Below, piece by piece: positions 22,538 to 63,214 of a DNA stretch of 64,000 nucleotides (position 1 is its first letter; every line of letters starts with the position of its first letter). This DNA comes from Callorhinchus milii (Eukaryota): the NCBI RefSeq assembly GCF_018977255.1, contig NW_024704743.1:27716001-27780000 (forward strand), read 5' to 3'. The position numbers were made by a program, and so were the translations under genes. The notes under the pieces were generated by a model. That model was given only the letters and a program-made list of their open reading frames with translations. It was not told the DNA's origin and did not search any database.

Positions 22538-22616
22538 ATGATGGGGACCGTTTCTCTCTCTCTTGGATTTGGTTGCATCTTTATCTTCTTCGCTCAGTTG
22601 ACCTTTTCATCCCAAG
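22538..22616 (+). CDS. VSTM2A: VSTM2A coding exon 1 (signal peptide)
   Basis: ATGATGGGG start, [26 protein letters not shown], donor AAG|GTAAGC. Confidence 0.9.
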
Positions 22617-25461
22617 GTAAGCTTGATTAATATATTCTTTGCCCCCCCCCCACCCCCCCCCCCCACCCCACCCACACCCCACCCCACCTCACCCCACACA
22701 CCTCTTGTTTGCAAACTGAAAATGAAAAGAAATGAACCGAGATGGATCTGTGTGTCTCAAGGCTGCTAAGTTGCTTTTTTTTTGGGGGGGGGGGGGAATA
22801 ATTAAACAAGGTAGGGGTTGGGAGGGATGGAGGAGTCGGTTGTTTATTGAAAAGCGAGTGGAATAAAAGTTGCACGTAAATAGTGGTGTGGGGAAGAGAC
22901 ACACTGTGTTATGTGTTTGAGGACTGGAAGGGAAAGGTAAGTCGTGCAAAATAGATGGATGGAGGGAAACAGATTGGGTGTGAGAGAGGCACAGGACCAC
23001 ACCGGGCACGACTGGAAACTGATTGATTTCCCCGAGTCTCTGACTGTCAAAGCAGAGACTTACTGTGGTCGTGGGAAGGGTATTTGTGTAGATGTGCCAC
23101 AGGAGTACAGCACAGCACCGGACTGTGTAACCTTGGCTATTTATTTTTTTTGCCCCCTCTGAGCGGATCGGTGGGCTGGAAAGCATGAAGCGTGAAGTGA
23201 CAGAGTGAGAAAGAGGGAGAGAGAGATCAACGATTGAGAAAGGCGAAGAACCAAGGGATGGGGTGGGGGGGGGGGGGGGGGTGGGGGGTGGAGGGGTGGG
23301 AGTTGGAGGGAGAAAATGCTGTAACATTCGGGAAAACTGGCAAAGAAGGAAGGAGGGGGAAAAGTGGGGGGAAAAAAGAACGTGTTCCCAAATAAAAGTA
23401 GGAGAGAGAGAGAGAGAGAGAGAGGGGGGGGAGTGTAAAAGAGAACATAGGAAAGATGAAGCTGAGCGAATAAGAGGAGGGAACACAAATAGGAGGCGAG
23501 TAATTCACTTGGGGTCAACTATTCAATGTGTCCGAATTTTTAGAGGCGTTAACTTGGAACCGATCGCTTTCAAACGATCGCTGCTGTGGTTTTAATGTCG
23601 GGGTTTGTATTTTCCTCGTGTTTAATGCACGGGAAGAAAACACGGAGGGCTCGAATAAGGGGAGCCAACAACTGGGGAATGAATGAACAAGCAGCAAGTC
23701 CAGCTGTTGCACATGCGAGGGGCTGTGTGCGTGTGTGTGTTGTGTGAGGTTGTGTGTGTGTGTGTGTTGTGTGTGTGTGTTGTGTGTGTGTTGTGTGTAG
23801 TTGTGTGTGTGTGTTGTATGTAGTTGTGTGTGTGTGTTGTGTGTGTGTGTTGTGTGTAGTTGTGTGTTGTGTGTAGTTGTGTTTGTGTTGTGTGTAGTTG
23901 TGTGTGTGTTGTATGTAGTTGTGTGCGTGTGTTTTGTGTAGTTGTGTGCGTGTGTTGTGTGTAGTGTGTGTGTGTTGTGTGTGTTGTGTGTAGTTGTGTG
24001 TGTGTTGTGTGTAGTTGTGTGTGTGTGTGTAGTTGTGTGCGTGTGTGTTGTGGAGGGTGGGGGGTGTTGTGTTGATGGTGACGGGGCTCTGCTAACGATT
24101 CCTGCAGTCATACATGACCTGGTGCGTTCAGGGAGGGGGGGGGGACTCTTTTTTTTAAAGAAAAAAAGCACGGTAAAAGATGTGAACCCCCACCCCCCCC
24201 CACCCCACTCCCCCACCCCCCACCCCCCACCCCCCACCCCCACCTTTTGCAGCGCGATTCACTGAGCTCCCCCGGAGCGTGACAGCCACCGAGGGGGAGA
24301 ATGTGGAGATGGCCTGCGCCTTCAGGGGCAGCGGGTCCCCATCCTACTACCTGGAGATCCAGTGGTGGTTCATTCGAGCTCCAGCCGACCAGGACTACAG
24401 CCCTGAAAACAGCAAGAGGCAGGTACGGCAAACCCCCCACCCCCCCCCCACCCCCCGCAACTGTGTGGCTTTTCCTCTGGGTTGAATTAATCGACCCTCT
24501 CTCTCTCTCTCTCTCCCCCCCCCCCCACTCCATCACCCACCATCACCAATACGCACGCATGCAAATGGTACCCGCATTTCCCATTTGTGCCCTGTCTTTG
24601 GTCGATTAAATGACTTTATGTAACGTAGTATAGCACTCTCGTAGCTGCTCTGCAAATAGATAGTACGTATGTGTGTGTGTCTCCCACCCACCCACCCCCC
24701 CACCCCCACCAATTATTATTATTATTATTAAACTTAACTCAGGCTGCGAATGCCTTTATCTGTCAATGTTGCTCTCCGCGTAATGTAACGTTACGCGGAA
24801 ACTATCGGTGGGAACTCAAAACACGTCCCGAGAGAGAGAAAATAATCAAAGGAACACAGATCCGAACGGTGCATCAACATTGGGGAAACCCTGCACTGAA
24901 GCGGTGCCCGAGCGACCCCCCCCCCCCCCCCCAACACCCCCCACCCCCACCCACCCACCCCGGGTGTGCGTGTTCCCGTTGCGGGTGACTGGATCGGGCG
25001 AGGGTCGAGCCCGGGCTGGTTGGTGTTTGCAACAGGTCTACCGCAGGGACCCCCCCGCCCCCCCCCCTTCCCCCCACCCACCACCAGCCTCACGTTGTGT
25101 GGGGGTGTGGGGGGGGACACACACACACACACCTTGAGGGGCGGGGAGTTCAGACGTGACAGGAGCAATGGGGGTGGGGAGAGGAAGGGGGTGCGGGTGG
25201 ATGGGGAGGGGGGTGGTGAGGGAGGGAGGGAGGGAGGGAGGGAGGGCGTCGGGGTGGGGGGGGGGGTTGGTATCAATGTTTTTTTGCACATTACCTGTAG
25301 CGTTGGAGCCTCTCCTGAGTTGACCATTGGCAGTCGGTGTTTATTTCCGAATGCACTTTTGTAATGAATATACTCTGCACACACATACATATGTGGGGGC
25401 CGTCTGGAGCGGGGGGGGGGGGGGGTGGGGTGTGAGTGTGTGTGGGGTGGGTGGGGGGGGG

Positions 25462-25493
<32 letters not shown>

Positions 25494-28087
25494 AACTTGT
25501 GTCTCGCATCCCTCGGGGTCTTGAGCACATTTACGCGTGTGTTGCGCATCGCGATGCAAACACCTCTGGTGTGATCTCGGCTATACTTTACACTGGAACC
25601 AATGCATTCACCGTGACGATAAAACTCGAGCAGCAACAATACCTGGAGAAGTTACCCCCCCACCCCGAGTATGCTGCATTTTCGTGGGAGGAGGGGGGGG
25701 GGGGGAGAAAAAGATACGGGTTAATCTCCCGGCGAGTGCTTTTAATGCGCGTAAACCGCGGTGACACTGTTGCTGATGATAACCACATCTGGACCCCCCC
25801 CCGTACCAAACCCGCACCGCTCCACGTGCGGGAACCGAACCACCGCCTCCGCACCTCTGCTGCAATCTTTCTGGCAAACTTGACGCGGGGTTTCACCCGC
25901 CGTTCGGGGCCGAATTCAACCGGTCAGCGAGAAGTCCAGGCGGATTTGGAGACCATTGGGACAGGCGGAGGGGGAGTGGGGGGGGGTCGGGGTGGGGGGG
26001 TGGGGGGGGGGTCAGTGATAAGAGGAGAAATTAGCATTTCACAGGCGGGTGACAGTGAATCTCTCTCTCTCTCTCTCTCTCTCGGGTCGAGCTCAGTATT
26101 AACACCAAACCAAACGATCCGATGTAAAAGTCCTCGCTCGGCATCGCCCGCGTGTTTTTGCACCAGTGCAGCGATCGCCCGTGTGTTTTGCACCAGTGCA
26201 GCGATCGCCCGCGTGTTTTGCACCAGTGCAGCGATCGCCCGCGTGTTTTGCACCAGTGCAGCGATCGCCCGCGTGTTTTTGCACCAGTGCAGCGATCGCC
26301 CGCGTGTTTGGCACCAGTGCAGCGATGCAAAAACACGGCGCGTGTAAATCCGGCCGCCGGCACAGCCTCTTTCTCTCTCTCTCTCACCTTTTGTGTTCAA
26401 TTATTTTTTTCTGTCTCCGAGCAGTTGGATCCAATGCCACGAAGCGAAATGATCAACGACGAGACGAAAATCAGCGTGAGTTTTGACACCTCGATCCACG
26501 CCGAAGCGAAGCTAAACTCCGAGCGGAGATCAGGACATTTGCACAATTCTCTGGTGTTTAACATCAAAGCAAACCCCCCCCCCAACTTAATTGGGAAATA
26601 TAACATCTCCCGGGACTCAGGGATGGGGAAGAGGAGAGTCGATCTGGGTATCAAAAGATAATGTGCACTGCGCCTTTCTTCCACAGAACACACAGTCGAT
26701 CGACTCTTCCCAGTATATTCCGTGGAGCGCTCTGAGACGTCTCCCCGACGCGACGAGGGGGGGGCGGGGGCTGCAAAATATTGCAAGGATGAGATAGATA
26801 GCTGTCCTCCACTGCCAGTGGAAACTCGCTAAAACACACACACACACACACACACACATACACACAGCTGTAGAAAACGTGCAAACAGCAAAAGAGCGAC
26901 CGGGTGTTGCAAACCCGTCCATCAGTTTAAGTGGACGACTGTCACCGCCTCCGGGTCGGGTTTTGGGTGTCTTTCGCTTCTATCTGCAAATGCGAATGCG
27001 AATGCGATGCGATGCGATGGTCTTAAACCGCAGTGAAACCGCAAAGCAGCAGCGCGACACCGAGAGTTGTCTCGTCGCTGGCGGAACGGAGCAATGGGAA
27101 CGGAGAAGCAATCCGCGTCCGTTTGACTCGGATTAAAGAGGACCCAGAGTGACGATCGGCGTTGTGAATGGGCTCCGACCGCACTCCCCAACCCCCGCAG
27201 TGACAGGTGCATCGCCGGCTACGCGGTGCGGGGAACCGTCTGGAGAGAAGGGCGACACGTTAGGATTGTGGCTGTGACTTTGATCTTAATCGGAGGGAGG
27301 GAGGGAGGGAGAGAGGGAGGGAGAGGGAGAGGGGGAGGGAGGGGGATCTCTGTGTTATTCCCAAGAATGTAACCTGGCCCCGTTTGCCCCGACTCCTCCA
27401 GGTGTCTCTTCCCACGTTTTTCGACCCCACACCCAAGAGCGCCACCTGCAACGATTACGCGACCGTCGGGACCCCCCGATGGCACTGGGAACACTGACAG
27501 CTCAGATCCCCGCGGGCGTGTGAGCCCGAACCCTAACCCTCTCCCGCCCTCAACAGAGCAGTTTCTAGGGATTATCCCCCCCTTCCCCCGCCACCCCCCC
27601 CCCCCCCCCCCCCTTCCCCCCCCCCCCCCCCCCTCCCTCACCCCTTTTTTTTTTCCTGCTGCGATTGCGTTTGGCTGTTGCTGCAGCACTGTCCCATCCA
27701 GTTGCGCCCTCTCAGTGGTGCGGTACGACGCAGCCCTCTCCAGTTCACTTTGGCACCGCATCGCGTCTGAGAGACACGGGGCAGTGTTTTCTCTCTGTGT
27801 CTTATTTGTTGTTGTTGTTGTTGTCGTCATCATTATTATTATTATTATTATTATTAGGTCCTTACATTAAAGATCGGGTTTAAATAGCATCATCAACAAC
27901 AAGCAACAAGGTCACATTTTGCAAGGACGCCTTTCGCGTCGGGACGACGTCCCCAGGGCGCTGGACGGTGCACAGCATATTTCAGGGAATCAACAGAAAA
28001 AAAAAAGACGCTGGAAATGTTCTGCCTCGACTGGGGTTTCGTACCATTTTCCCAAACCGATTTCGGTGCAGGAGACACACACTCACA

Positions 28088-28199: not shown

Positions 28200-29499
28200 G
28201 GAGCGATTATAACAACCAAATCGCCGTCGGTGCCAACGTGGGTCCATTTCATTTCATTGTTTTCGCGAAACAAAAAGGTCCCCCCGAGTGTTTTGTTTTT
28301 GGGGGGAAAGTATTTGCCAAACCACAAGAGCAACAATTACACGTGGTGAATAATGCATTTGCAACTCGCCTGTTGTGTTGTGCGTTGTGTTGTGTTGTGT
28401 TGTGTGTTGTGTGTTGTGTGTGTGTGTGTGTGACCGAGTGTTGGTGTCTTGCATTGAGCCTGAAGGCTCTTGTGCGCAAACACGCACACACGGTGATCAT
28501 GATGGAAGTCCAAATCCTACACACACACCTACACACACACACCTACACACACACCTACACACACACACCTACACACTGTGATCATGATGGAAGTCCAAAT
28601 CCTACACACACACCTACACACACACACCTACACATACACACAGTGATCATGATGGAAGTCCAGATCCTACACACACACCTACACACACACACACACCTAC
28701 ACACACACCTACACACACACACCTACACATACACACAGTGATCATGATGGAAGTCTAGATCCTACACACACACCTACACACACACACACACCACACCTAC
28801 ACACACACCTACACACACACACACACCTACACATACACACACCTACACATACACACCTACACACACACACACACCTACACACACACCTACACATACACAC
28901 AGTGATCATGATGGAAGTCCAGATCCTACACACACACTTACACACACACACACACACAGTGCTGGGGAGTTAGTTACTCGTGGCTCTGTTCTCTCTCTCT
29001 CTCTCTCCCTCCTTCCTCCCCCCCCCCCCCCCCCCACCCCCCCCCCCCCCCCCACCCCCCCCCCCCCCCACCTTTTTGCAGACGGTGAAAGTGATGGGCA
29101 GCGACATCTCGCACAAGCTGCAGATCTCCAAGGTGCGCAAGGAAGACGAGGGGCTGTACGAGTGCCGGGTGACGGACGCCAACGTGGGCGAGCTGCAGGA
29201 GTACAAGGCTCAGGCGCACCTGTACGTCAACGCCAGCCACTCCCGGGCTCTGCAGGCGCTCGAGGCGCCGCCCCTGCCCCTGCACGATGGCAAGGGCCTG
29301 AGGGCCGCGGCCCCTGCCCCCCCCAGCCAGCGGCCTGGGCGCCGCTCCCCCGGCGGCAGCGACGACGCGGCTCGCAGAGGGCAGTCGGCACCCACCTCCA
29401 GGCCAGCGGCGGCGGCCACTATCCTCAGGCAGAGCGCCACCTCCACTTCAGGTAGGTGCTGGACCTCAGGCCAAGCTGCAACACAGCGGTACACACACA

Positions 29500-29746: not shown

Positions 29747-31233
29747 GCACATAGTCCCCCATATGTGTGCATTGCATTCATAAGATTATTCATATTATTA
29801 TTATTAGAAAAGCATAAGCTGTAATGATTTGATGCAGTGGGCGCCCATAGTCCCAGAGCAGTTAATATATTATTCGACCACTGTATAGATGAAATTTGTG
29901 TATGAAATATGCATTGGTGGTGAATACATAATGGCAGTCTGCAGACCATGAATTGAGTATCTATATTTCGATGCTACTGTACGGTTTGGCAGTGACTTAA
30001 ATGGCAGAATGACAAGACAAGTTGACGCGAAAGGTGTAACACAGCTTTCAAGTGAAATGGAAATATTTAAAGAACCCCAAATCAGGACTTCTGCTGAATG
30101 AATGCACGAGTTTAGCGTCAGATATGTGTTATCTTTTCTATTTACAAAGTTTAGGCGGGTTTTTTTTTAACTGGTGTGATACAAGCATAGGTAAAAGAGC
30201 AATAAAGCACGTAATGATTTAAGACTTGAAGGTAGAAGGCGTCACACGACTATCAGTTGAGCATTTGGAGGATTTATCAACATTGCTGCAACAATGAGAT
30301 AAACTATAAGCTTTACTGTATGTTTGTAGATAAGCATTGTACAGCAACAACAACTTGCACTTATATAGCGCCTTCCACGCAGGTTAGCTTCTCAGAGCGC
30401 TTAAATTGTACCCTTGATATGAAACATCATGCTTAATATATTTGCCATACAAATCTAGTATAGTATTCACATAATATACCAGAACCCCCCCCCCCCCCCC
30501 CCCCATATGTGTTTATTTGGTATCCTTACTGAAGGACAATAGATCTCCCTCATAGTAAAGTCATCTTATCAGAGGTGCCTATACTTCATACAATGTAGTG
30601 TGATTTTATATTACAATGTGTAGTCATTATAAGCCCTGTATATTATGTATGATATTACTATGACATGATTAGATGTTTATATATAATATATATTACAGTG
30701 AATGTTTTCTGTAATGTGTACAGTGGAGTTCTGTGGTTTTAATTAGCTTTGATAAGGTCAAATTGAACTCCTCTCAGCAAGAACTTGTTGTCTCTTGTTT
30801 TTTTTGAAACGTTCTTTCTCAGAGGACTTCAGCTATTTACAAATTCACCAAAACACCGTTTGAATGCTTTGTTTTGTTCTGGCATAAATTCAATGTTGTC
30901 GCCCCCAACCCCAACCCCTTTCACTGAGAATCCTGCTTTCTCTCTCAAAGATCAATTTCCCTACCTTGATCTTATCAGGGTTGTGGACTCTATATGTCGT
31001 GCTATATAGTGGAATTGCATGCTAAGCCAGTCGACGGTCCATTAACAGGTTATGCTGGACTCCAGTTGAAATATATGTGTTGAGAAACGTTGCTAAGAAA
31101 TATTAGAAACACAAAATCTTCCAGATGAGCGAATATTTTAACTTCTTTCGCAGGTACGACGATCGTAGCTGCAAGCCATGGACTAGCTGTCCTGCTTCTT
31201 ATTTGTGGCTTTATGAAGGGTGCTTTGCTATAG
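22538..31233 (+). CDS. VSTM2A: V-set and transmembrane domain-containing protein 2A, join(22538-22616,24253-24422,26425-26475,29082-29451,31154-31233), 249 aa
   Basis: All introns GT-AG and phase-consistent (79+170+51+370+80=750 nt). Protein [104 protein letters not shown] matches recalled VSTM2A better than VSTM2B/VSTM2L. Confidence 0.93.
23720..24050. repeat. Compound (GT)n/GTT/GTA microsatellite
   Basis: Visible in the sequence. Confidence 0.9.
24253..24422 (+). CDS. VSTM2A: VSTM2A exon 2 (Ig V-set N-half)
   Basis: Acceptor ccttttgcag|, [39 protein letters not shown], donor CAG|GTACGG. Confidence 0.95.
26141..26342. repeat. 30 bp CpG-rich minisatellite, ~6 units (GCGATCGCCCGCGTGTTTTGCACCAGTGCA)
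   Basis: Tandem array visible in intron 2. Confidence 0.95.
26425..26475 (+). CDS. VSTM2A: VSTM2A exon 3 (51 nt)
   Basis: Pyrimidine tract + gagcag|, [17 protein letters not shown], donor AGC|GTGAGT; TKIS motif is conserved in the VSTM2 family. Confidence 0.9.
28493..28960. repeat. Compound minisatellite: 5 copies of GTGATCATGATGGAAGTCYARATCCTA separated by variable (CA)n/CCTA tracts
   Basis: Cores start at 28493, 28578, 28643, 28738, 28902. Confidence 0.92.
29082..29451 (+). CDS. VSTM2A: VSTM2A exon 4 (Ig V-set C-half + low-complexity stalk)
   Basis: Acceptor ctttttgcag|, [47 protein letters not shown], donor CAG|GTAGGT. Confidence 0.95.
31154..31233 (+). CDS. VSTM2A: VSTM2A terminal exon 5a (hydrophobic, GPI-signal-like C-terminus)
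   Basis: Acceptor ttctttcgcag|, (G)[25 protein letters not shown]. Confidence 0.92.
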
Positions 31234-31272
31234 TCTTAGTGCTGACTTTTCCACTATCACTTTCTCTTAAAG

Positions 31273-31358
31273 CAAAGAGCGATTGGACGGTAAAATCCAC
31301 GGATCGGACAGCCAAATCGACCTTAAACTCCCACCCTTCTGCACCCAATGTACTGTAA
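31273..31358 (+). CDS. VSTM2A: VSTM2A alternative terminal exon 5b (hydrophilic C-terminus, 251 aa isoform)
   Basis: Acceptor cactttctcttaaag|, phase-1 compatible: (A)KSDWTVKSTDRTAKSTLNSHPSAPNVL*; resembles a recalled mammalian VSTM2A isoform ending ...VKSTERTAKLTLNS...APTVL. Confidence 0.75.
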
Positions 31359-31397
31359 TTCTCTAGCAATGGAGCCTTTTGCCGAAGAACAAGGACG

Positions 31398-31407
31398 AAT
31401 AAATAAA
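31398..31407 (+). promoter_or_regulatory. VSTM2A: Candidate proximal poly(A) signals (overlapping AATAAA x2)
   Basis: aataaataaa 40 nt after the exon 5b stop. Confidence 0.35.
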
Positions 31408-32569
31408 CCACCGCTTTTGGGCATTGTTCGGGAGAATCAATACAAAATGGAATTTAATATTGATAACGAACAACTTTTGGGCAATTTCACACGTGCGAGA
31501 TTTTAACTCGAGTGCATCCTCTTACACAATAAATCGTGCAATCCAGAGATCACCGTTGGACACAGTTTGTCAATTAATGAACCAACCACATCCAACCACC
31601 AACTCCAAATCCGTGCAAGAATTTTTTTTTATTGCACCTTCTCCACTTTAATGATAATCCGATCGTCATTTGAAGTTCTTGGGGGACAATCTTGATTTCC
31701 ATAGAAATAATTGTGTAAAGTGTGCAGGAATCTTGTAATCGCATTAGAGAACCACCTAACCCAACCCAACCCACCCAACACATTGTACCACTCCAATCGG
31801 CACCTGGATATTTTATTTTACCTATAATTTGATATGATATATGGATACATTGGAGCTACTCTATATTGCAGAGCCAACCTAACCCACATTATTTACTGCT
31901 TTTGAGTGTGATGTGATTATATTCCTTCCTTCCATATAAGCACCAAAGCTTTCCCCTGCAGCCATCTCAGTTTGCGTTGTGACACCAATACTGTTTAAAG
32001 AATTGTCTAATTCCTGAGCTGAATAATACGACACTGTGTGATTGTAATATTTCCCCCCCATCCCCCTCCCCCCCCCCCCCCCCCCCCCCCCACACACACA
32101 CACTCCTAGTAACGCAACCACTCAACCCGTGGGACAATAGTCCCTTCTCAAAATGCAAGTTGTAGAATCTTAAAAACAAAAAATATTAACATTTCTTTTG
32201 GTATTGGTTTGTGAGTGAGCAAAAAAAAAACAAAGAACCTTGCTTTGCGCTGTGAGTGTTTCTTTTTTTTTTAAAAAACAACAAAAAATGGAGCATTATC
32301 TTGCAAATCACGTCGATGTTCTGGGTTATGTTTTATTTCTCTGTAATAAAATGTCATCTTATTGGTGTGATGCTCGTTCACGGAATTGCAATCACGGGCA
32401 CAAAAAAAAAGTTAGATCACAGCGACACCTACTGAGACATATGTAGAGGCTGAATCAACTTGACATTAAAATCAAACAAGGACTATGTTCTATTTTTCCC
32501 TCCCCGTTTGCTTCGTTTTTTTGTTTGTGTATTTGCAATTAGGAAATCAATCTTGTGTGTGTGTGTTTT

Positions 32570-58835: not shown

Positions 58836-59940
58836 CACTTGTTGCTGGGTTTAACCACGTGAAGCCATTGGGAACACTGGCAAACTTCCTGCTGCTTGTA
58901 TAGCTACGACCATTTGGACTTGCAGGGTTAACATGTGCCGAGTACAAAAATCCCACATAAAGATGCCATAGTGGGGGAAAAATACAAACGTGCCTCAATA
59001 TTTAATTATGTCTAAACATAGGTAAAGTATATAGAAACACCTAATTACGTGAACAAAAGTAAAGATATCTAAAATTGGCAAATTTAAGCAACAGAGGTTA
59101 TCTTGTGGTATGTCTTAACTGAATTCCTTGATAAGACTCCCTTTCAAATTCCCATTCACCCGTGGAAAACCTGCTCCGGGAACTAATGTCGTCAAATCGG
59201 AATTCCTGTTGGTCCGCAATACACACTACCGGTCAGCAAAAAGATTTTCCATTTAGGCTAAGAGATACTGCAGTTTGAAATGCCCACGTGTTATTGAAAA
59301 ATGCTCTTTGCCCAGCTTTGAAGAGAAAGTTAATCCACTTCACAGTATATTCTGGGAACCGGTTTGAGACGTCTCAACGATGTGATAAGGCGCTATATCA
59401 AATGCAAGGATTATTACTCTTATTATCTTCCAATCACTTCTGAAGACTTTCCTCTTTGACTGTTTCTACCATCACCTCTCCTTTCTCCCAGGCTCAGAAT
59501 CAAAATACGCCACTGTCAAGCTCTCCAAGTCACTAACCCACATGAAGGGCACTATGTGAATACAAATAGTCATTTAACTGAAATAAATCACCATATCAGA
59601 ACACAAATCACCAGATCAGCAACCTTTATTTTATATAAAAAGAAACTCTTTGCGTATCCTTTAAACTCATGGTAATAACTTGTTGATGGCGATTTCATTT
59701 GGGTTTTCAATTAAAGTTGTGGGGGGGAGTTTTTGTAGAAAAAGAGACTTCACTGCGTCTGAAAAAAGAAGTCAAGGTGTGCAGGAGGTTTAGCTCGACA
59801 GGAGCTACACACGTCTCCTCTGGAACAAGCAACTGATTTAAAATCTTTGCATAAATCTGTATTTTTTGGGGGGAAAAAAACACAAGAGGGCAAGTGTGTG
59901 GGGCGTCAGAAATGAACTGAAAACGAGTTCAGTAAATGAA

Positions 59941-60378
59941 GTGGTGTGTGTGTGTGTGTGTGTGTGTTGGTGTGTGTTTGGTGTGTGTGTGTGTTTGGTG
60001 TGTGTGTGTGTTTGGTGTGTGTGTGTTTGGTGTGTGTGTGTGTGTGTTTGGTGTGTGTGTGTTTGGTGTGTGTGTGTGTTTGGTGTGTGTGTGTTTGGTG
60101 TGTGTGTGTTTGGTGTGTGTGTGTGTTTGGTGTGTGTGTCTGGTGTGTGTGGTGGTGTTGTGTGTTTGGTGTGTGTGTGTTTTTATTTGCTCACCTGCTA
60201 CCTCTCGGGTTACTGGAATCTTTTAACCGGTGTGTGTGTGTTTGGTGTGTGTGTGTGTGTGTGGTGTGTGTGTGTTTGGTGTCTGTGTGTTTGGTGTGTT
60301 TGTGTGTGTGGTGTGTGTGTTTGGTGTGTGTGTGTTTGGTGTGTGTGTGTGTGTGTGTTTGGTGTGTGTGTGTGTTTG

Positions 60379-60411
<33 letters not shown>

Positions 60412-62246
60412 TGGTGTGTGTGTGTTTGGTGTGTGTGTGTGTGTGGTGTGTGTGTGTGTTTGGTGTGTGTTGTGTGTTGTGTGTGTGTGTTTGGTGTGTG
60501 TGTGTGTGTTGGTGTGTGTGTGTGTGTGTTTGGTGTGTGTGTGTGTTTGGTGTGTGTGTGTGTTTGGTGTGTGTGTGTGTTTGGTGTGTGTGTGTGTGTT
60601 TGGTGTGTGTGTGTTTGGTGTGTGTGTGTGTGTTTGGTGTGTGTGTGTGTGTGTTGGTGTGTGTGTGTGTTTGGTGTGTGTGTGTGTTTGGGTGTGTGTG
60701 TTGGTGCTGTGTGTGTGTGTTTGGTGTGTGTGTGTGTGTGTGTTTGGTGTGTGTGTGTGTTTGGTGTGTGTGTGTTTGGTGTGTGTGTGTTTGGTGTGTG
60801 TGTGTGTGTTTGGTGTGTGTGTGTTTGGTGTGTGTGTGTGTGCGCTCTCCAGGTAAACCCACTGCAGGACCCCAAGAGAAAAAAAACACGCGAAAAAAAA
60901 AACCTGCAAGGAAACAAAAATACGACATAAAGTGGAGGGACCAAAAAGGGACTGGTTTGCAATGTGTGTGTTTTTTATTTGCTCACCTGCTACCTCTCGG
61001 GTTACTGGAATCTTTTTAACCGGTTGTGCTGTGTTTGGTGTGTGTGTGTGTGTGTGTTTGGTGTGTGTGTGTTTGGTGTGTGTGTGTGTTTGGTGTGTGT
61101 GTGTGTGTGTTTGGTGTGTGTGTGTGTGTGGTGTGTGTTTGTTTGGTGTGTGTGTGTGTTTGGTGTGTGTGTGTTTGGTGTGTGTGTGTGTGTTTGGTGT
61201 GTGTGTGTTTGGTGTGTGTGTGTGTTTGGTGTGTGTGTGTTTGGTTTGTTGTGTGTGTGTGTGTGTGTGTGTGTTTGGTGTGTGTGTGTTTGGTGTGTGT
61301 GTGTGTTTGGTTGTTGTGTGGTGTGTGTGTGTTTGGTGTGTGTGTGTGTTTGGTGTGTGTGTGTTTGGTGTGTGTGTGTGTTTGGTTTGTGTGTGTGTGT
61401 TTGGTGTGTGTGTGTTTGGTGTGTGTGTGTTTGGTGTGTGTGTGTGTTTGGTGTGTGTGTGTTTGGTGTGTGTGTGTGTTTGGTGTGTGTGTGTGTTTGG
61501 TGTGTGTGGTGTGTGTGTGTTTGGTGTGTGTGTGTTTGGTGTGTGTGTGTTTGGTGTGTGTGTCTGGTGTGTGTGTGTGTCAGTCTGGTGTGTGTTTGGT
61601 GTGTGTGTGTGTCAGTCTGGTGTGTGTTTGGTGTGTGTGTCTGGTGTGTGTGTGTGTGTGTGTGTGTGTTTGGTGTGTGTGTGTGTGTGTTTGGTGTGTG
61701 TGTGTTTGGTGTGTGTGTGTGTTTGGTGTGTGTGTGTTTGGTGTGTGTGTGTGTGTTTGGTGTGTGTTTGGTGTGTGTGTGTTTGGTGTGTGTGTGTTTG
61801 GTGTGTGTGTGTTTGGTGTGTGTGTGTGTTTGGTGTGTGTGTGTTTGGTGTGTGTGTGTTTGGTGTGTGTGTGTGTTTGGTGTGTGTGTGTTTGGTGTGT
61901 GTGTGTGTTTGGTGTGTGTGTGTTTGGTGTGTGTGTGTTTGGTGTGTGTGTGTGTTTGGTGTGTGTGTGTTTGGTGTGTGTGTGGTGTGTGTGTGTGGTG
62001 TGTGTGGTTTGGTGTGTGTGTGGTTTGGTGTGTGTGTGGTGTGTTTGGTGTGTGTGTATGTGTGGTGTGTGTGTGTTTGGTGTGTGTGTGTTTGGTGTGT
62101 GGTGTGTTTGGTGTGTGTGTGTGTGTGTGTGTGTGGTGTGGGGGTATATATATATATTATATATATATACCCCCACACCACACACACACACACACCAAAC
62201 ACACACCAAACACACACACCAAACACACACACACCAAACACACACC
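59941..62246. repeat. ~2.3 kb compound (GT)n-TTG satellite with two unique inserts and a terminal strand inversion
   Basis: Visible in the sequence; source of the long Cys/Val and His/Thr ORFs. Confidence 0.97.
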
Positions 62247-62279
62247 GAAACACAGATACATATATTACATATAAAAAAA

Positions 62280-63049
62280 GTCTCTGAGATGACAGACGAG
62301 GGCGCTGAACCTCTGATGACTCGCTGTGAATGACAGTGTTTGTGGTGTGTGTTGGTGAGTGTGTTGTGAGCCACAGACACTTGTCCTTCCCCAATGCAGT
62401 CAGTCTTCAGAGGAGAGGAGAGGAGAGGAGGAGAGGAGGAGAGGAGAGGAGAGGATGGATGAGCTCTTCGCCCGTCTCATCTCTCTTTTCTCTGCGGATC
62501 TAAGGCCGGGGACTTCCTGAACAAAACCAGACAGCAGCAGTTCTTTTTTCTCTCTCTCTCTCTCTCTCTCTCATCTATCTTTTTTATTATTATTATTATT
62601 ATTAACGCACATCCCGCAGCAGCAGCAGAGGCAGAGTCAGCAACAGCAGCAACAGCAGCAGCCGCAGGACTTCCCGCAGCAAACCCGCACAGCACCTTTT
62701 TGGTGCTGCCGAATGCGGTCCCTCGTTTCTTTCGGGATCAGAGAGGAAGGAGGAGGAGGAGGAGGTGGTGGAGGAGGAGGTGGTGGGGGGTGAATAGTCT
62801 GGAAGCTCTCAGGCTCCGGATCGGATGAATGTTAAACCCCTCTCTCTCCCTCTCTCCCTCTCTGTGTGTCTTGGAATCGCCGAGGAAGCGACGCAACGAC
62901 AACGAGAGACTTTATTCGGGTCCAAATCCTTTGGATGCGCAGCGACTGCAACCTGCTGCAAGTTTCTGCAGCTGCTCCCCTCTCTCTCTGTGTGCATTCC
63001 CCCCCTCCCCCCCCTTTTTTTTCCCCCCTGTTTTGCATGGCTGTAGACC
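62280..63049 (+). promoter_or_regulatory. FHOD3: CpG-rich promoter / 5' UTR region of FHOD3
   Basis: Elevated CpG, (GGA)n, (CAG)-rich and (CT)n tracts immediately upstream of the start codon. Confidence 0.55.
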
Positions 63050-63214
63050 ATGGCCACTTTCGTCTGCAGGGTTCAGTTCTTAGACGACACCGATCCGTTC
63101 AACAGCACCAACTTCCCCGAACCCACCCGACCCCCCGTCTACACTTTCCGAGAGGACATCCCTCTGATCAATCAGATCGCCGGGGTCCACCGGCTGCTCA
63201 GAGCTCCCCACAAG
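63050..63214 (+). CDS. FHOD3: Formin homology 2 domain-containing protein 3, coding exon 1 (55 aa); gene continues beyond the window
   Basis: Strong Kozak accATGg; MATFVCRVQFLDDTDPFNSTNFPEPTRPPVYTFREDIPLINQIAGVHRLLRAPHK matches the FHOD3 N-terminus (FHOD1 differs); donor AAG|GTAAGG. Confidence 0.93.

What the first reader, a model, noticed from the sequence alone, without database searches (positions are those of the whole stretch)
31154..31358. Tandem terminal acceptors give VSTM2A either an anchored or a soluble C-terminus
Seen: two phase-1-compatible 3' splice sites 119 nt apart. AG|31154 encodes a hydrophobic tail ([29 protein letters not shown]-signal-like). AG|31273, inside the first exon's 3' UTR, encodes a polar tail (AKSDWTVKSTDRTAKSTLNSHPSAPNVL*). 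From recall, mammalian VSTM2A has isoforms with both kinds of ending. Inference: an anchored-versus-secreted switch for this neural Ig protein has been kept since the jawed-vertebrate ancestor.
Basis: partly seen in the sequence, partly recalled or inferred. Interest (0 to 1): 0.7.

Follow-up and report, generated by a model that had tools for sequence, protein, structure and literature searches.

The report
Ultraconserved anchored-or-secreted splice switch in VSTM2A
The elephant-shark gene for the cell-signalling protein VSTM2A splices its last exon at either of two nearby sites, giving a likely membrane-anchored or a likely secreted protein; both endings recur from sharks to mammals, and the stretch matches the human 'ultraconserved element' uc.217, so far studied as a non-coding RNA.

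Summary
Confirmed and extended. The window holds elephant-shark VSTM2A. Exons 1-4 plus the 31154 ending equal the RefSeq protein; the 31273 ending had no record among the hits. RNA-type contigs join exon 4 to both acceptors (31154 in two studies, 31273 in two samples of one study). Both tails are on record in sharks, bichirs, sturgeons, bowfin, coelacanth, caecilians, birds and mammals; the polar tail was in 0 of 157 teleost sequences. Papers show mouse Vstm2a is GPI-anchored and a 240-aa human form (the polar tail, by length) is secreted; none I found links the two by splicing. New here: the published primers of ultraconserved element uc.217 map onto the first acceptor and the polar-tail coding sequence, and synonymous sites are conserved from shark to bird. 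So the constraint is on the DNA, and the polar peptide's own sequence may matter little (rays and rodents frameshift it). Anchoring, secretion and regulation are untested in the shark; shedding also releases soluble Vstm2a. The scan had no earlier VSTM2A note. New member of a known kind.

The parts
22538..22616 (+). VSTM2A exon 1 coding part (predicted signal peptide)
   Evidence: joined product identical to P0004; N-terminal 11-residue hydropathy 2.50
24253..24422 (+). exon 2 (V-set Ig domain, first part)
   Evidence: PF07686
26425..26475 (+). exon 3 (51 nt)
29082..29451 (+). exon 4 (end of Ig domain, Ser/Thr/Pro-rich stalk); its GT donor at 29452 is shared by both endings
31066..31153 (+). 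conserved intron block ending in the first acceptor (AG 31152-31153)
   Evidence: 90-99% alike in contigs of organisms B, C and D
31154..31233 (+). ending 5a: hydrophobic tail, predicted GPI signal; stop TAG 31231-31233
   Evidence: X1, X2; X14
31234..31272 (+). spacer: 3' UTR in the 5a mRNA and intron end for 5b (branch-like CTGAC at 31242, pyrimidine tract, AAG 31270-31272)
   Evidence: no difference listed at 31214-31287 in the organism E contig
31273..31358 (+). ending 5b: polar tail without an anchor signal; stop TAA 31356-31358; it is also 3' UTR of the 5a mRNA
   Evidence: (X1, X3)
31151..31311 (+). minimal stretch that corresponds to human ultraconserved element uc.217 (221 bp)
   Evidence: published uc.217 primers map to 31151-31173 and 31292-31311
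31398..31403 (+). AATAAA, candidate poly(A) signal in the shared 3' UTR
   Evidence: use not shown
31528..31533 (+). AATAAA, candidate poly(A) signal; the X2 contig ends at 31541, the X1 and X3 contigs run past 31720

Best explanation
The exon-4 donor of VSTM2A is spliced to either of two acceptors 119 nt apart in the last exon; the first gives a hydrophobic tail predicted to be replaced by a GPI anchor, the second gives a polar tail, so the same Ig domain would be either tethered to the cell surface or secreted. Both mRNAs stop in the last exon and share the 3' UTR, so neither should meet nonsense-mediated decay (inferred). The choice likely dates from the ancestor of jawed vertebrates and was likely lost in most teleosts. 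The block is ultraconserved most likely because several codes overlap in about 300 nt: first acceptor, GPI-signal codons, branch point and pyrimidine tract of the second acceptor inside the first form's UTR, and polar-tail codons that are also UTR. What selection keeps is likely the anchor-or-no-anchor choice and its ratio more than the letters of the polar peptide. Shown: both splice joins, both tails across lineages, DNA-level constraint, overlap with uc.217. Inferred: GPI attachment and secretion in the shark, regulation of the ratio, a purpose for the soluble form.
For: Both junctions in RNA-type contigs, at depths 24.9 and 24.4 in run X1. A contig of organism E runs from exon 4 through 31154 to 31366 with 18 other letters in 216, no gap, and diverges 8 nt after the 5b stop; a contig of organism D starts exactly at 31271, as the shared contig does at the fork in X1. 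Both tails on record in 8 sharks, 2 rays, 6 non-teleost ray-finned fishes, coelacanth, 2 caecilians, birds and mammals. Shark versus ape or human: 5a 19 of 26, 5b 20 of 29, stalk only 27 of 75 residues identical. Hydropathy separates the classes: best 15-residue window median 2.20 for 245 5a tails, at most 0.65 for 95 tails that start like 5b; small residues S-G-T at the junction fit an omega site. PI-PLC releases mouse Vstm2a (PMC13728146). A 240-aa human form is secreted by the ER-Golgi route (PMC6771244), and 240 = 211 shared + 29 of 5b. uc.217 primers land on the 5a acceptor and on 5b codons. Shark-bird 5b DNA: 68 of 81 inferred positions and 16 of 19 same-residue codons identical, 5.5 expected at random.
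Against: No GPI predictor or experiment was run on the shark protein. The 5b junction is seen in one study only, on contigs with 30 letters of exon 4; run X5 of a third study covered only UTR. 0 of 157 teleost sequences carry 5b. 10 of 95 5b-start tails depart from the frame or length, and shark-to-shark changes in 5b are 5 non-synonymous to 3 synonymous and 4 to 3, little sign of selection on the peptide. The anchored form itself sheds a soluble fragment (PMC13728146). The isoform identity of both papers' clones is inferred (by length; by the predicted GPI signal), and the 2019 constructs carry tags that could favour release. Most isoform records are automatic XP_ models. No tissue labels or raw reads, so regulation is unshown.
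Confidence: 0.8

Rival explanations
1. 5b is a tolerated by-product: the DNA is conserved for the 5a mRNA's UTR or for splicing of 5a, the second AG is used without a selected purpose, and physiological soluble VSTM2A comes from shedding of the GPI form.
For: Synonymous sites are nearly as conserved as non-synonymous ones; frameshifts in rays, rat, cricetids and rabbit, and absence from teleost records; shedding seen in HEK293T (PMC13728146); mammals have many other unconserved endings.
Against: Near 1:1 depth of the two junction contigs in X1; 85 of 95 tails keep frame from start to stop with lengths of 28-31 residues, indels being whole codons; high likeness ends just after the 5b stop; the 240-aa form is reported as the most expressed in human colon (PMC6771244).
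Confidence: 0.12
2. [quoted passage not shown]
For: uc.217 is described as an lncRNA that restrains neurite outgrowth (Yao 2015, seen only through the review PMC6611387); another transcript, GS1-18A18.1, is listed over the element.
Against: The primer pair sits on VSTM2A's own acceptor and codons; uc.217 level correlates with its host gene (0.886 sense); uc.217+ and VSTM2A are each reported as top down-regulated in colorectal cancer; no structure above shuffles (z -0.95) and no Rfam match over the block.
Confidence: 0.05
3. The hydrophobic tail is a true transmembrane helix, as the gene's name says, not a GPI signal.
For: Best 19-residue hydropathy 2.09.
Against: The protein ends at the hydrophobic stretch with no cytosolic tail; PI-PLC releases the mouse protein.
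Confidence: 0.03

Closest known systems
Mammalian VSTM2A isoforms (human NP_872352.2, 236 aa; NM_001301009, 240 aa; mouse NP_666079.2)
   Same: Orthologous gene (tree support 100/99), same two tails, same phase-1 join.
   Different: The isoforms are database records; the papers read treat the protein as either secreted (PMC5551894, PMC6771244) or GPI-anchored with shedding (PMC13728146) and do not tie the two to a choice of acceptor. The polar form had no Callorhinchus record among the hits.
Ultraconserved element uc.217 (chr7:54,636,656-54,636,876 as printed in PMC4991481, supplement)
   Same: Its primers map onto the first acceptor and the 5b codons.
   Different: In the papers read it is handled as a transcribed non-coding RNA; here it reads as a two-acceptor splice switch that is recognisable in cartilaginous fishes.
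Neurexin-3 AS5 (Hauser et al. 2022, PMC9275415, passages read)
   Same: Conserved 3' splice choices, with tandem acceptors in the last exon, set the mode of membrane attachment of a synaptic protein; VSTM2A binds alpha-neurexins.
   Different: Nrxn3 switches between GPI and transmembrane forms through a cassette exon; VSTM2A switches between GPI and no anchor through two acceptors of one last exon.
Acetylcholinesterase H/T/R, CD55 and NCAM1 GPI-versus-soluble splice forms (recalled, not read here)
   Same: Alternative 3' end gives or removes the GPI signal.
   Different: Different families; I do not recall an ultraconserved element over those switches (not checked).
Ultraconserved elements over alternative exons, such as uc.138 in TRA2B exon 2 (PMC9829027, passage read)
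   Same: Extreme DNA conservation over a regulated splice event.
   Different: That exon carries premature stops; here both products stop in the last exon and are full proteins that differ in location.

Membership tests
VSTM2A orthologues | Groups with named VSTM2A, not with VSTM2B-like or VSTM2L-like proteins | tested here: met
   clade support 100/99; the B-like and L-like labels are mine from recalled sequence features, the rows being unnamed
VSTM2A orthologues | Signal peptide, one V-set Ig domain, stalk, five exons | tested here: met
   five exons in human per PMC6771244; signal peptide judged by hydropathy only
Alternative 3' splice-site events | One donor joined to two acceptors in transcripts | tested here: met
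   (X1 both; X2 first; X3 second); contigs hold 30 letters of exon 4
Alternative 3' splice-site events | Regulated ratio between tissues or cell types | not testable with these tools
   only contigs, no tissue labels
GPI-anchored proteins (5a form) | Hydrophobic C-terminal stretch with no cytosolic tail | tested here: met
GPI-anchored proteins (5a form) | Small residues at omega and omega+2 about 20-30 residues from the end | tested here: met
   rule scan: S-G-T at 223-225 (S-G-A in ape and bichir); a permissive rule that gave 7 candidates, not a trained predictor
GPI-anchored proteins (5a form) | Release by PI-PLC or GPI labelling | not testable with these tools
   shown for mouse Vstm2a in PMC13728146, not for the shark protein
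Secreted proteins (5b form) | Signal peptide and no later hydrophobic segment | tested here: met
   best 19-residue window -0.76 in the tail, 0.23 in the mature part
Ultraconserved elements (at least 200 bp identical in human, mouse, rat) | The orthologous human stretch is a listed element | tested here: met
   uc.217, 221 bp, exon-intron of VSTM2A; primers map here; the element's full sequence was not seen
NAGNAG-type tandem acceptors | Acceptors 3 nt apart, changing one residue | tested here: not met
   119 nt apart, with a stop between them
Poison-exon (splicing-coupled decay) switches | A premature stop upstream of a later exon junction | tested here: not met
   both stops lie in the last exon by the model; no later junction seen up to 31720; further downstream not tested

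The most novel reading that the evidence does not exclude
uc.217 is not a non-coding RNA but a 400-million-year-old splice dial that sets, cell type by cell type, the ratio of GPI-tethered to freely secreted VSTM2A, the soluble form acting at a distance or as a decoy for alpha-neurexin and LRP6; the published uc.217 phenotypes are VSTM2A phenotypes, the secreted-versus-anchored dispute is an isoform mix-up, and teleosts are a natural loss of the dial.
Probability: 0.35. Interest if true: 0.75.

Novelty: new member of a known kind. Interest (0 to 1): 0.55.

Why it matters
It gives one ultraconserved element a concrete, testable reason for its conservation: single-base edits of either acceptor should fix the protein on the surface or in the medium. 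It would reconcile papers that call VSTM2A secreted (Wnt/LRP6 antagonist, adipogenesis) with the 2026 paper that calls it GPI-anchored (alpha-neurexin ligand), and it warns that work on 'lncRNA uc.217' in nerve injury and cancer may have measured or knocked down VSTM2A mRNA. The kind of mechanism is well known and the isoforms are already in databases, which caps the surprise.

Tried and rejected
No whole genome is held, so a processed copy elsewhere could not be searched for; no DNA run was laid as control. No holder is on record as RNA; absence of intron cover in X1-X3 fits RNA but is not proof. Runs X5, X7 and X10 gave no junction. RNA structure as the cause of conservation: no support (z -0.95, 35 of 200 shuffles fold as well); Rfam's 11 matches lie on microsatellites or upstream intron, all far below gathering score. 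Placing other species' minor endings in this window: of 139 distinct tails only 5a- and 5b-type tails matched clearly; the VHAK-type tail gave a weak match at 32376-32414 with no AG before it (2 and 5 of 200 shuffles for two variants, not significant for the others), at the level of evident chance hits, so unresolved; the catshark and manta minor tails did not place. RBFOX-type TGCATG at 31016 (motif recalled): 2 copies in 2.25 kb, conservation untested, not used as evidence. A search with the sturgeon 5b region found only gar (low sensitivity). No 5b-like tail at 6 bits or more among the 135 new unnamed representatives, which include B-like and L-like proteins. The clone used by Secco 2017 could not be identified. 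One search used exon limits off by one, so its two window rows are void (redone); one search stopped before its sixth row. Two papers were not held.

Full report
What the locus is. The peptide of exon 29082-29450 is 100% identical to a Callorhinchus milii protein named VSTM2A, first of 188 hits, 120 of them listed. Exons 22538-22616, 24253-24422, 26425-26475 and 29082-29451 have GT donors and, from exon 2 on, AG acceptors, and total 670 nt, so the last intron is phase 1. With 31154-31233 they give 249 aa identical to XP_042202171.1; with 31273-31358 they give 251 aa without an internal stop. A tree of 29 proteins puts the gene among named VSTM2A with support 100/99 (the outgroup labels B-like and L-like are mine, from recall). 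The RefSeq protein is alone in its cluster and no other listed hit was 100% identical, so the polar form appears unrecorded for this species.

Both acceptors are used. Four runs were laid on 30950-31720. Among organism A's runs, X1 has a contig that joins the end of exon 4 to 31154 (depth 24.9) and one that joins it to 31273 (depth 24.4); X2, of another study, has the first join; X3 has the second. The loose 28-mer matches the window once, at 29422-29449 (0 of 100 shuffles). None of the three covers the intron before 31151. Limits: the runs are RNA by the tool's guess, they are contigs and give no true ratio, each junction contig holds 30 letters of exon 4 (the tool asks 31 to call a record bridging; 30 is what a fork in a 31-mer graph leaves, my inference), and both 31273 joins come from study P1. 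Four more runs were laid on 30700-31740. X5 covered UTR only. X14 (organism E) has one long contig from exon-4-like sequence through 31154 to 31366 with 18 other letters in 216 and no gap, so the 119-nt spacing is the same; no difference is listed from 31214 to 31287, across the 5a stop, the branch-like CTGAC, the pyrimidine tract and the second AG, and likeness falls away 8 nt after the 5b stop. X11 (organism D) has a contig that begins exactly at 31271, as the shared contig does in X1, a hint of the same fork. X7, X10 and X11 carry the intron block 31066-31153 (X7 from 31111) at 90-99% likeness.

Spread. Tails were read from 519 proteins fetched (cluster representatives and at most 15 members per cluster, not all records): 245 scored as 5a, 99 as 5b, 175 as neither (the two small profiles were built from members of the same set). 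Species with both tails on record include eight sharks (Heterodontus, Heptranchias, Pristiophorus with 5b cut to 11 residues, two Chiloscyllium, Rhincodon, Stegostoma, Hemiscyllium), two rays (Mobula hypostoma, Hemitrygon; 5b frameshifted after eight residues), Polypterus, Erpetoichthys, Acipenser ruthenus, Polyodon, Huso, Amia, Latimeria, two caecilians, crane, flamingo, gibbon, squirrel monkey, cattle, rat, shrew, meerkat, pangolin and sea lion. Most are automatic models; cattle NP_001076997 (5b), human NP_872352.2 and mouse NP_666079.2 (5a) are NP records. The human 240-aa record and mouse isoform 1 were not among those listed; a human UniRef record ends in the 5b tail. Of 157 sequences I classed as teleost (by name, a few unnamed rows by likeness), 122 were 5a, 0 were 5b and 35 neither; the best 5b score was 6.7 bits, in a second tarpon copy. 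This is absence from annotation, not from genomes. No 5b-like tail was found among 135 further unnamed relatives, while B-like proteins end hydrophobic, which suggests 5a is the older ending. A shared origin at the base of jawed vertebrates follows by parsimony; the age of over 400 million years is from my own knowledge.

What the tails do. 5a has a best 19-residue hydropathy of 2.09, ends at the hydrophobic stretch and has S-G-T 26 residues from the end, S-G-A in ape and bichir (a simple rule, no trained predictor). 5b scores -0.76 and the mature protein has no other hydrophobic segment. Across the set the classes do not overlap: at least 1.32 for 244 of 245 5a tails (one mis-modelled record 0.13), at most 0.65 for 95 tails that start like 5b. 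PMC13728146 (abstract, passages, plasmid section and peer-review file read) shows N-terminally tagged mouse Vstm2a on the cell surface, released by PI-PLC and bound by alpha-neurexins with the SS2 insert; it also reports a shed 25-kDa fragment and says earlier work called the protein secreted. Its clone has a predicted GPI signal, so it is 5a by inference; the figure with the sequence was not held as text. PMC6771244 (passages, section 26, supplement legends) notes four human isoforms with different C-termini, uses the 240-aa NM_001301009 as the most expressed in colon, and shows brefeldin-sensitive secretion and binding of LRP6 through the Ig domain. Exons 1-4 give 211 residues in human and 5b gives 29 in apes, so 240 aa fits 5b; the other human endings seen give 226, 228, 236, 244, 309 and 343. 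PMC5551894 (passages; supplement searched) reports secretion without a clone I could identify.

Why it is so conserved. Shark versus human or chimpanzee: Ig domain 84 of 123, stalk 27 of 75, 5a 19 of 26, 5b 20 of 29 residues identical; 5b is 21, 22, 17 and 15 of 29 against crane, coelacanth, caecilian and bichir. Two mis-modelled records read 5b in another frame, which fixes most DNA letters: against bird 68 of 81 positions equal the window (third positions 20 of 26), and 16 of 19 same-residue codons are identical where uniform codon choice gives 5.5; against primate 66 of 81 and 14 of 18 (the two frames come from different species, one codon gap allowed). Changes listed against X14 and X11 in 5b are 5:3 and 4:3 non-synonymous to synonymous over 61:20 sites, three of them at CpG. 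So the DNA is constrained at all codon positions and the peptide only modestly more. In keeping, 10 of 95 5b-start tails break frame or length (two rays, three rodents, rabbit, a salamander, a sawshark, a houndshark, one mis-model) but none gains a hydrophobic end; 85 keep frame over 28-31 residues. A table in PMC3626850 lists ultraconserved element uc.217 as exonic in VSTM2A. The supplement of PMC4991481 gives it as 221 bp, exon-intron, with UTR, and gives a primer pair. One primer matches 31292-31311 in 5b with 2 mismatches, 0 of 100 shuffles; the other begins at the first acceptor's CAG and reads GARIAT, the start of human, mouse and rat 5a. Taking both primers to lie within the element, the two acceptors are tandem within 221 bp in human too, and uc.217 is this switch. 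In the papers read, uc.217 is handled as an lncRNA: lowered in injured sensory neurons (Yao 2015, seen only in review PMC6611387), most lowered in bladder cancer and top lowered in colorectal cancer without mention of VSTM2A (PMC11824705), where VSTM2A is itself reported as top lowered.

Mechanism. Shown: one donor, two acceptors, two tails, wide conservation, overlap with uc.217. Inferred: GPI transfer at the exon-4/5a junction serine; secretion of 5b; no decay of either mRNA; selection on the splice choice through overlapping codes. Untested: what sets the ratio and what the soluble form is for; since the Ig domain binds LRP6 and the protein binds alpha-neurexins, tethered versus diffusible ligand is my best guess. 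Confidence 0.8, with tolerated by-product plus shedding the main rival (0.12).

Novelty. The isoforms are in databases, GPI anchoring and secretion are each published, and splice switches of membrane attachment are a known kind (Nrxn3 AS5, PMC9275415, passages; acetylcholinesterase, CD55, NCAM1 recalled). Ten searches of the open-access library (listings seen, 12 papers opened in part) showed no paper that ties VSTM2A's two locations to acceptor choice, to sharks or to uc.217. Subscription papers, the original ultraconserved-element papers and Yao 2015 were not available and may note the splice event. PMC12934767, PMC4992253 and PMC8631521 (passages) added nothing on this event. The scan's index had no VSTM2A note and no look-alike stretch. 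Verdict: real, new member of a known kind, interest 0.55.

Noticed in passing
window 63050-63214 (+): First coding exon of a formin with an N-terminal GBD domain (PF18382, E 7.7e-24); FHOD3-type by recall.
   Followed up: partly
proteins P0068, P0419, P0222, P0429, P0488 and others: A third short polar ending that starts VHA is on record in bichirs, amphibians, birds and mammals (32 of 519; mouse isoform 3 is an NP record). Its place in this window is unresolved; a weak match at 32376-32414 has no AG before it.
   Followed up: partly
window 31066-31153: The intron end before the first acceptor is 90-99% alike in three other organisms and is present in their RNA-type contigs at fair depth (10-55), suggesting a splicing element and a retained or slowly spliced last intron.
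   Followed up: partly
proteins P0139, P0148: Two stingray-group species read the second ending in a shifted frame after eight residues, giving a 23-residue tail that still lacks an anchor signal.
   Followed up: partly
protein P0274: A second tarpon copy has a stretch weakly like the polar tail (6.7 bits), perhaps a remnant in an early-branching teleost.
   Followed up: no
proteins P0554, P0586, P0609: Unnamed, long-branch VSTM2-like proteins with hydrophobic ends; possibly jawless-fish relatives, origin not determined.
   Followed up: partly
window 26150-26330: About six head-to-tail copies of a roughly 30-nt unit in intron 2, just before exon 3 (seen).
   Followed up: no
window 59840-62400: A 2.5-kb degenerate TG array upstream of the formin gene, G+T-rich on the + strand.
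   Followed up: no
window 31016-31021: TGCATG (RBFOX-type motif, recalled) 138 nt before the first acceptor; conservation untested.
   Followed up: no
window 31381: G-to-A difference in the low-depth X3 contig, in the shared 3' UTR; allele or error.
   Followed up: no
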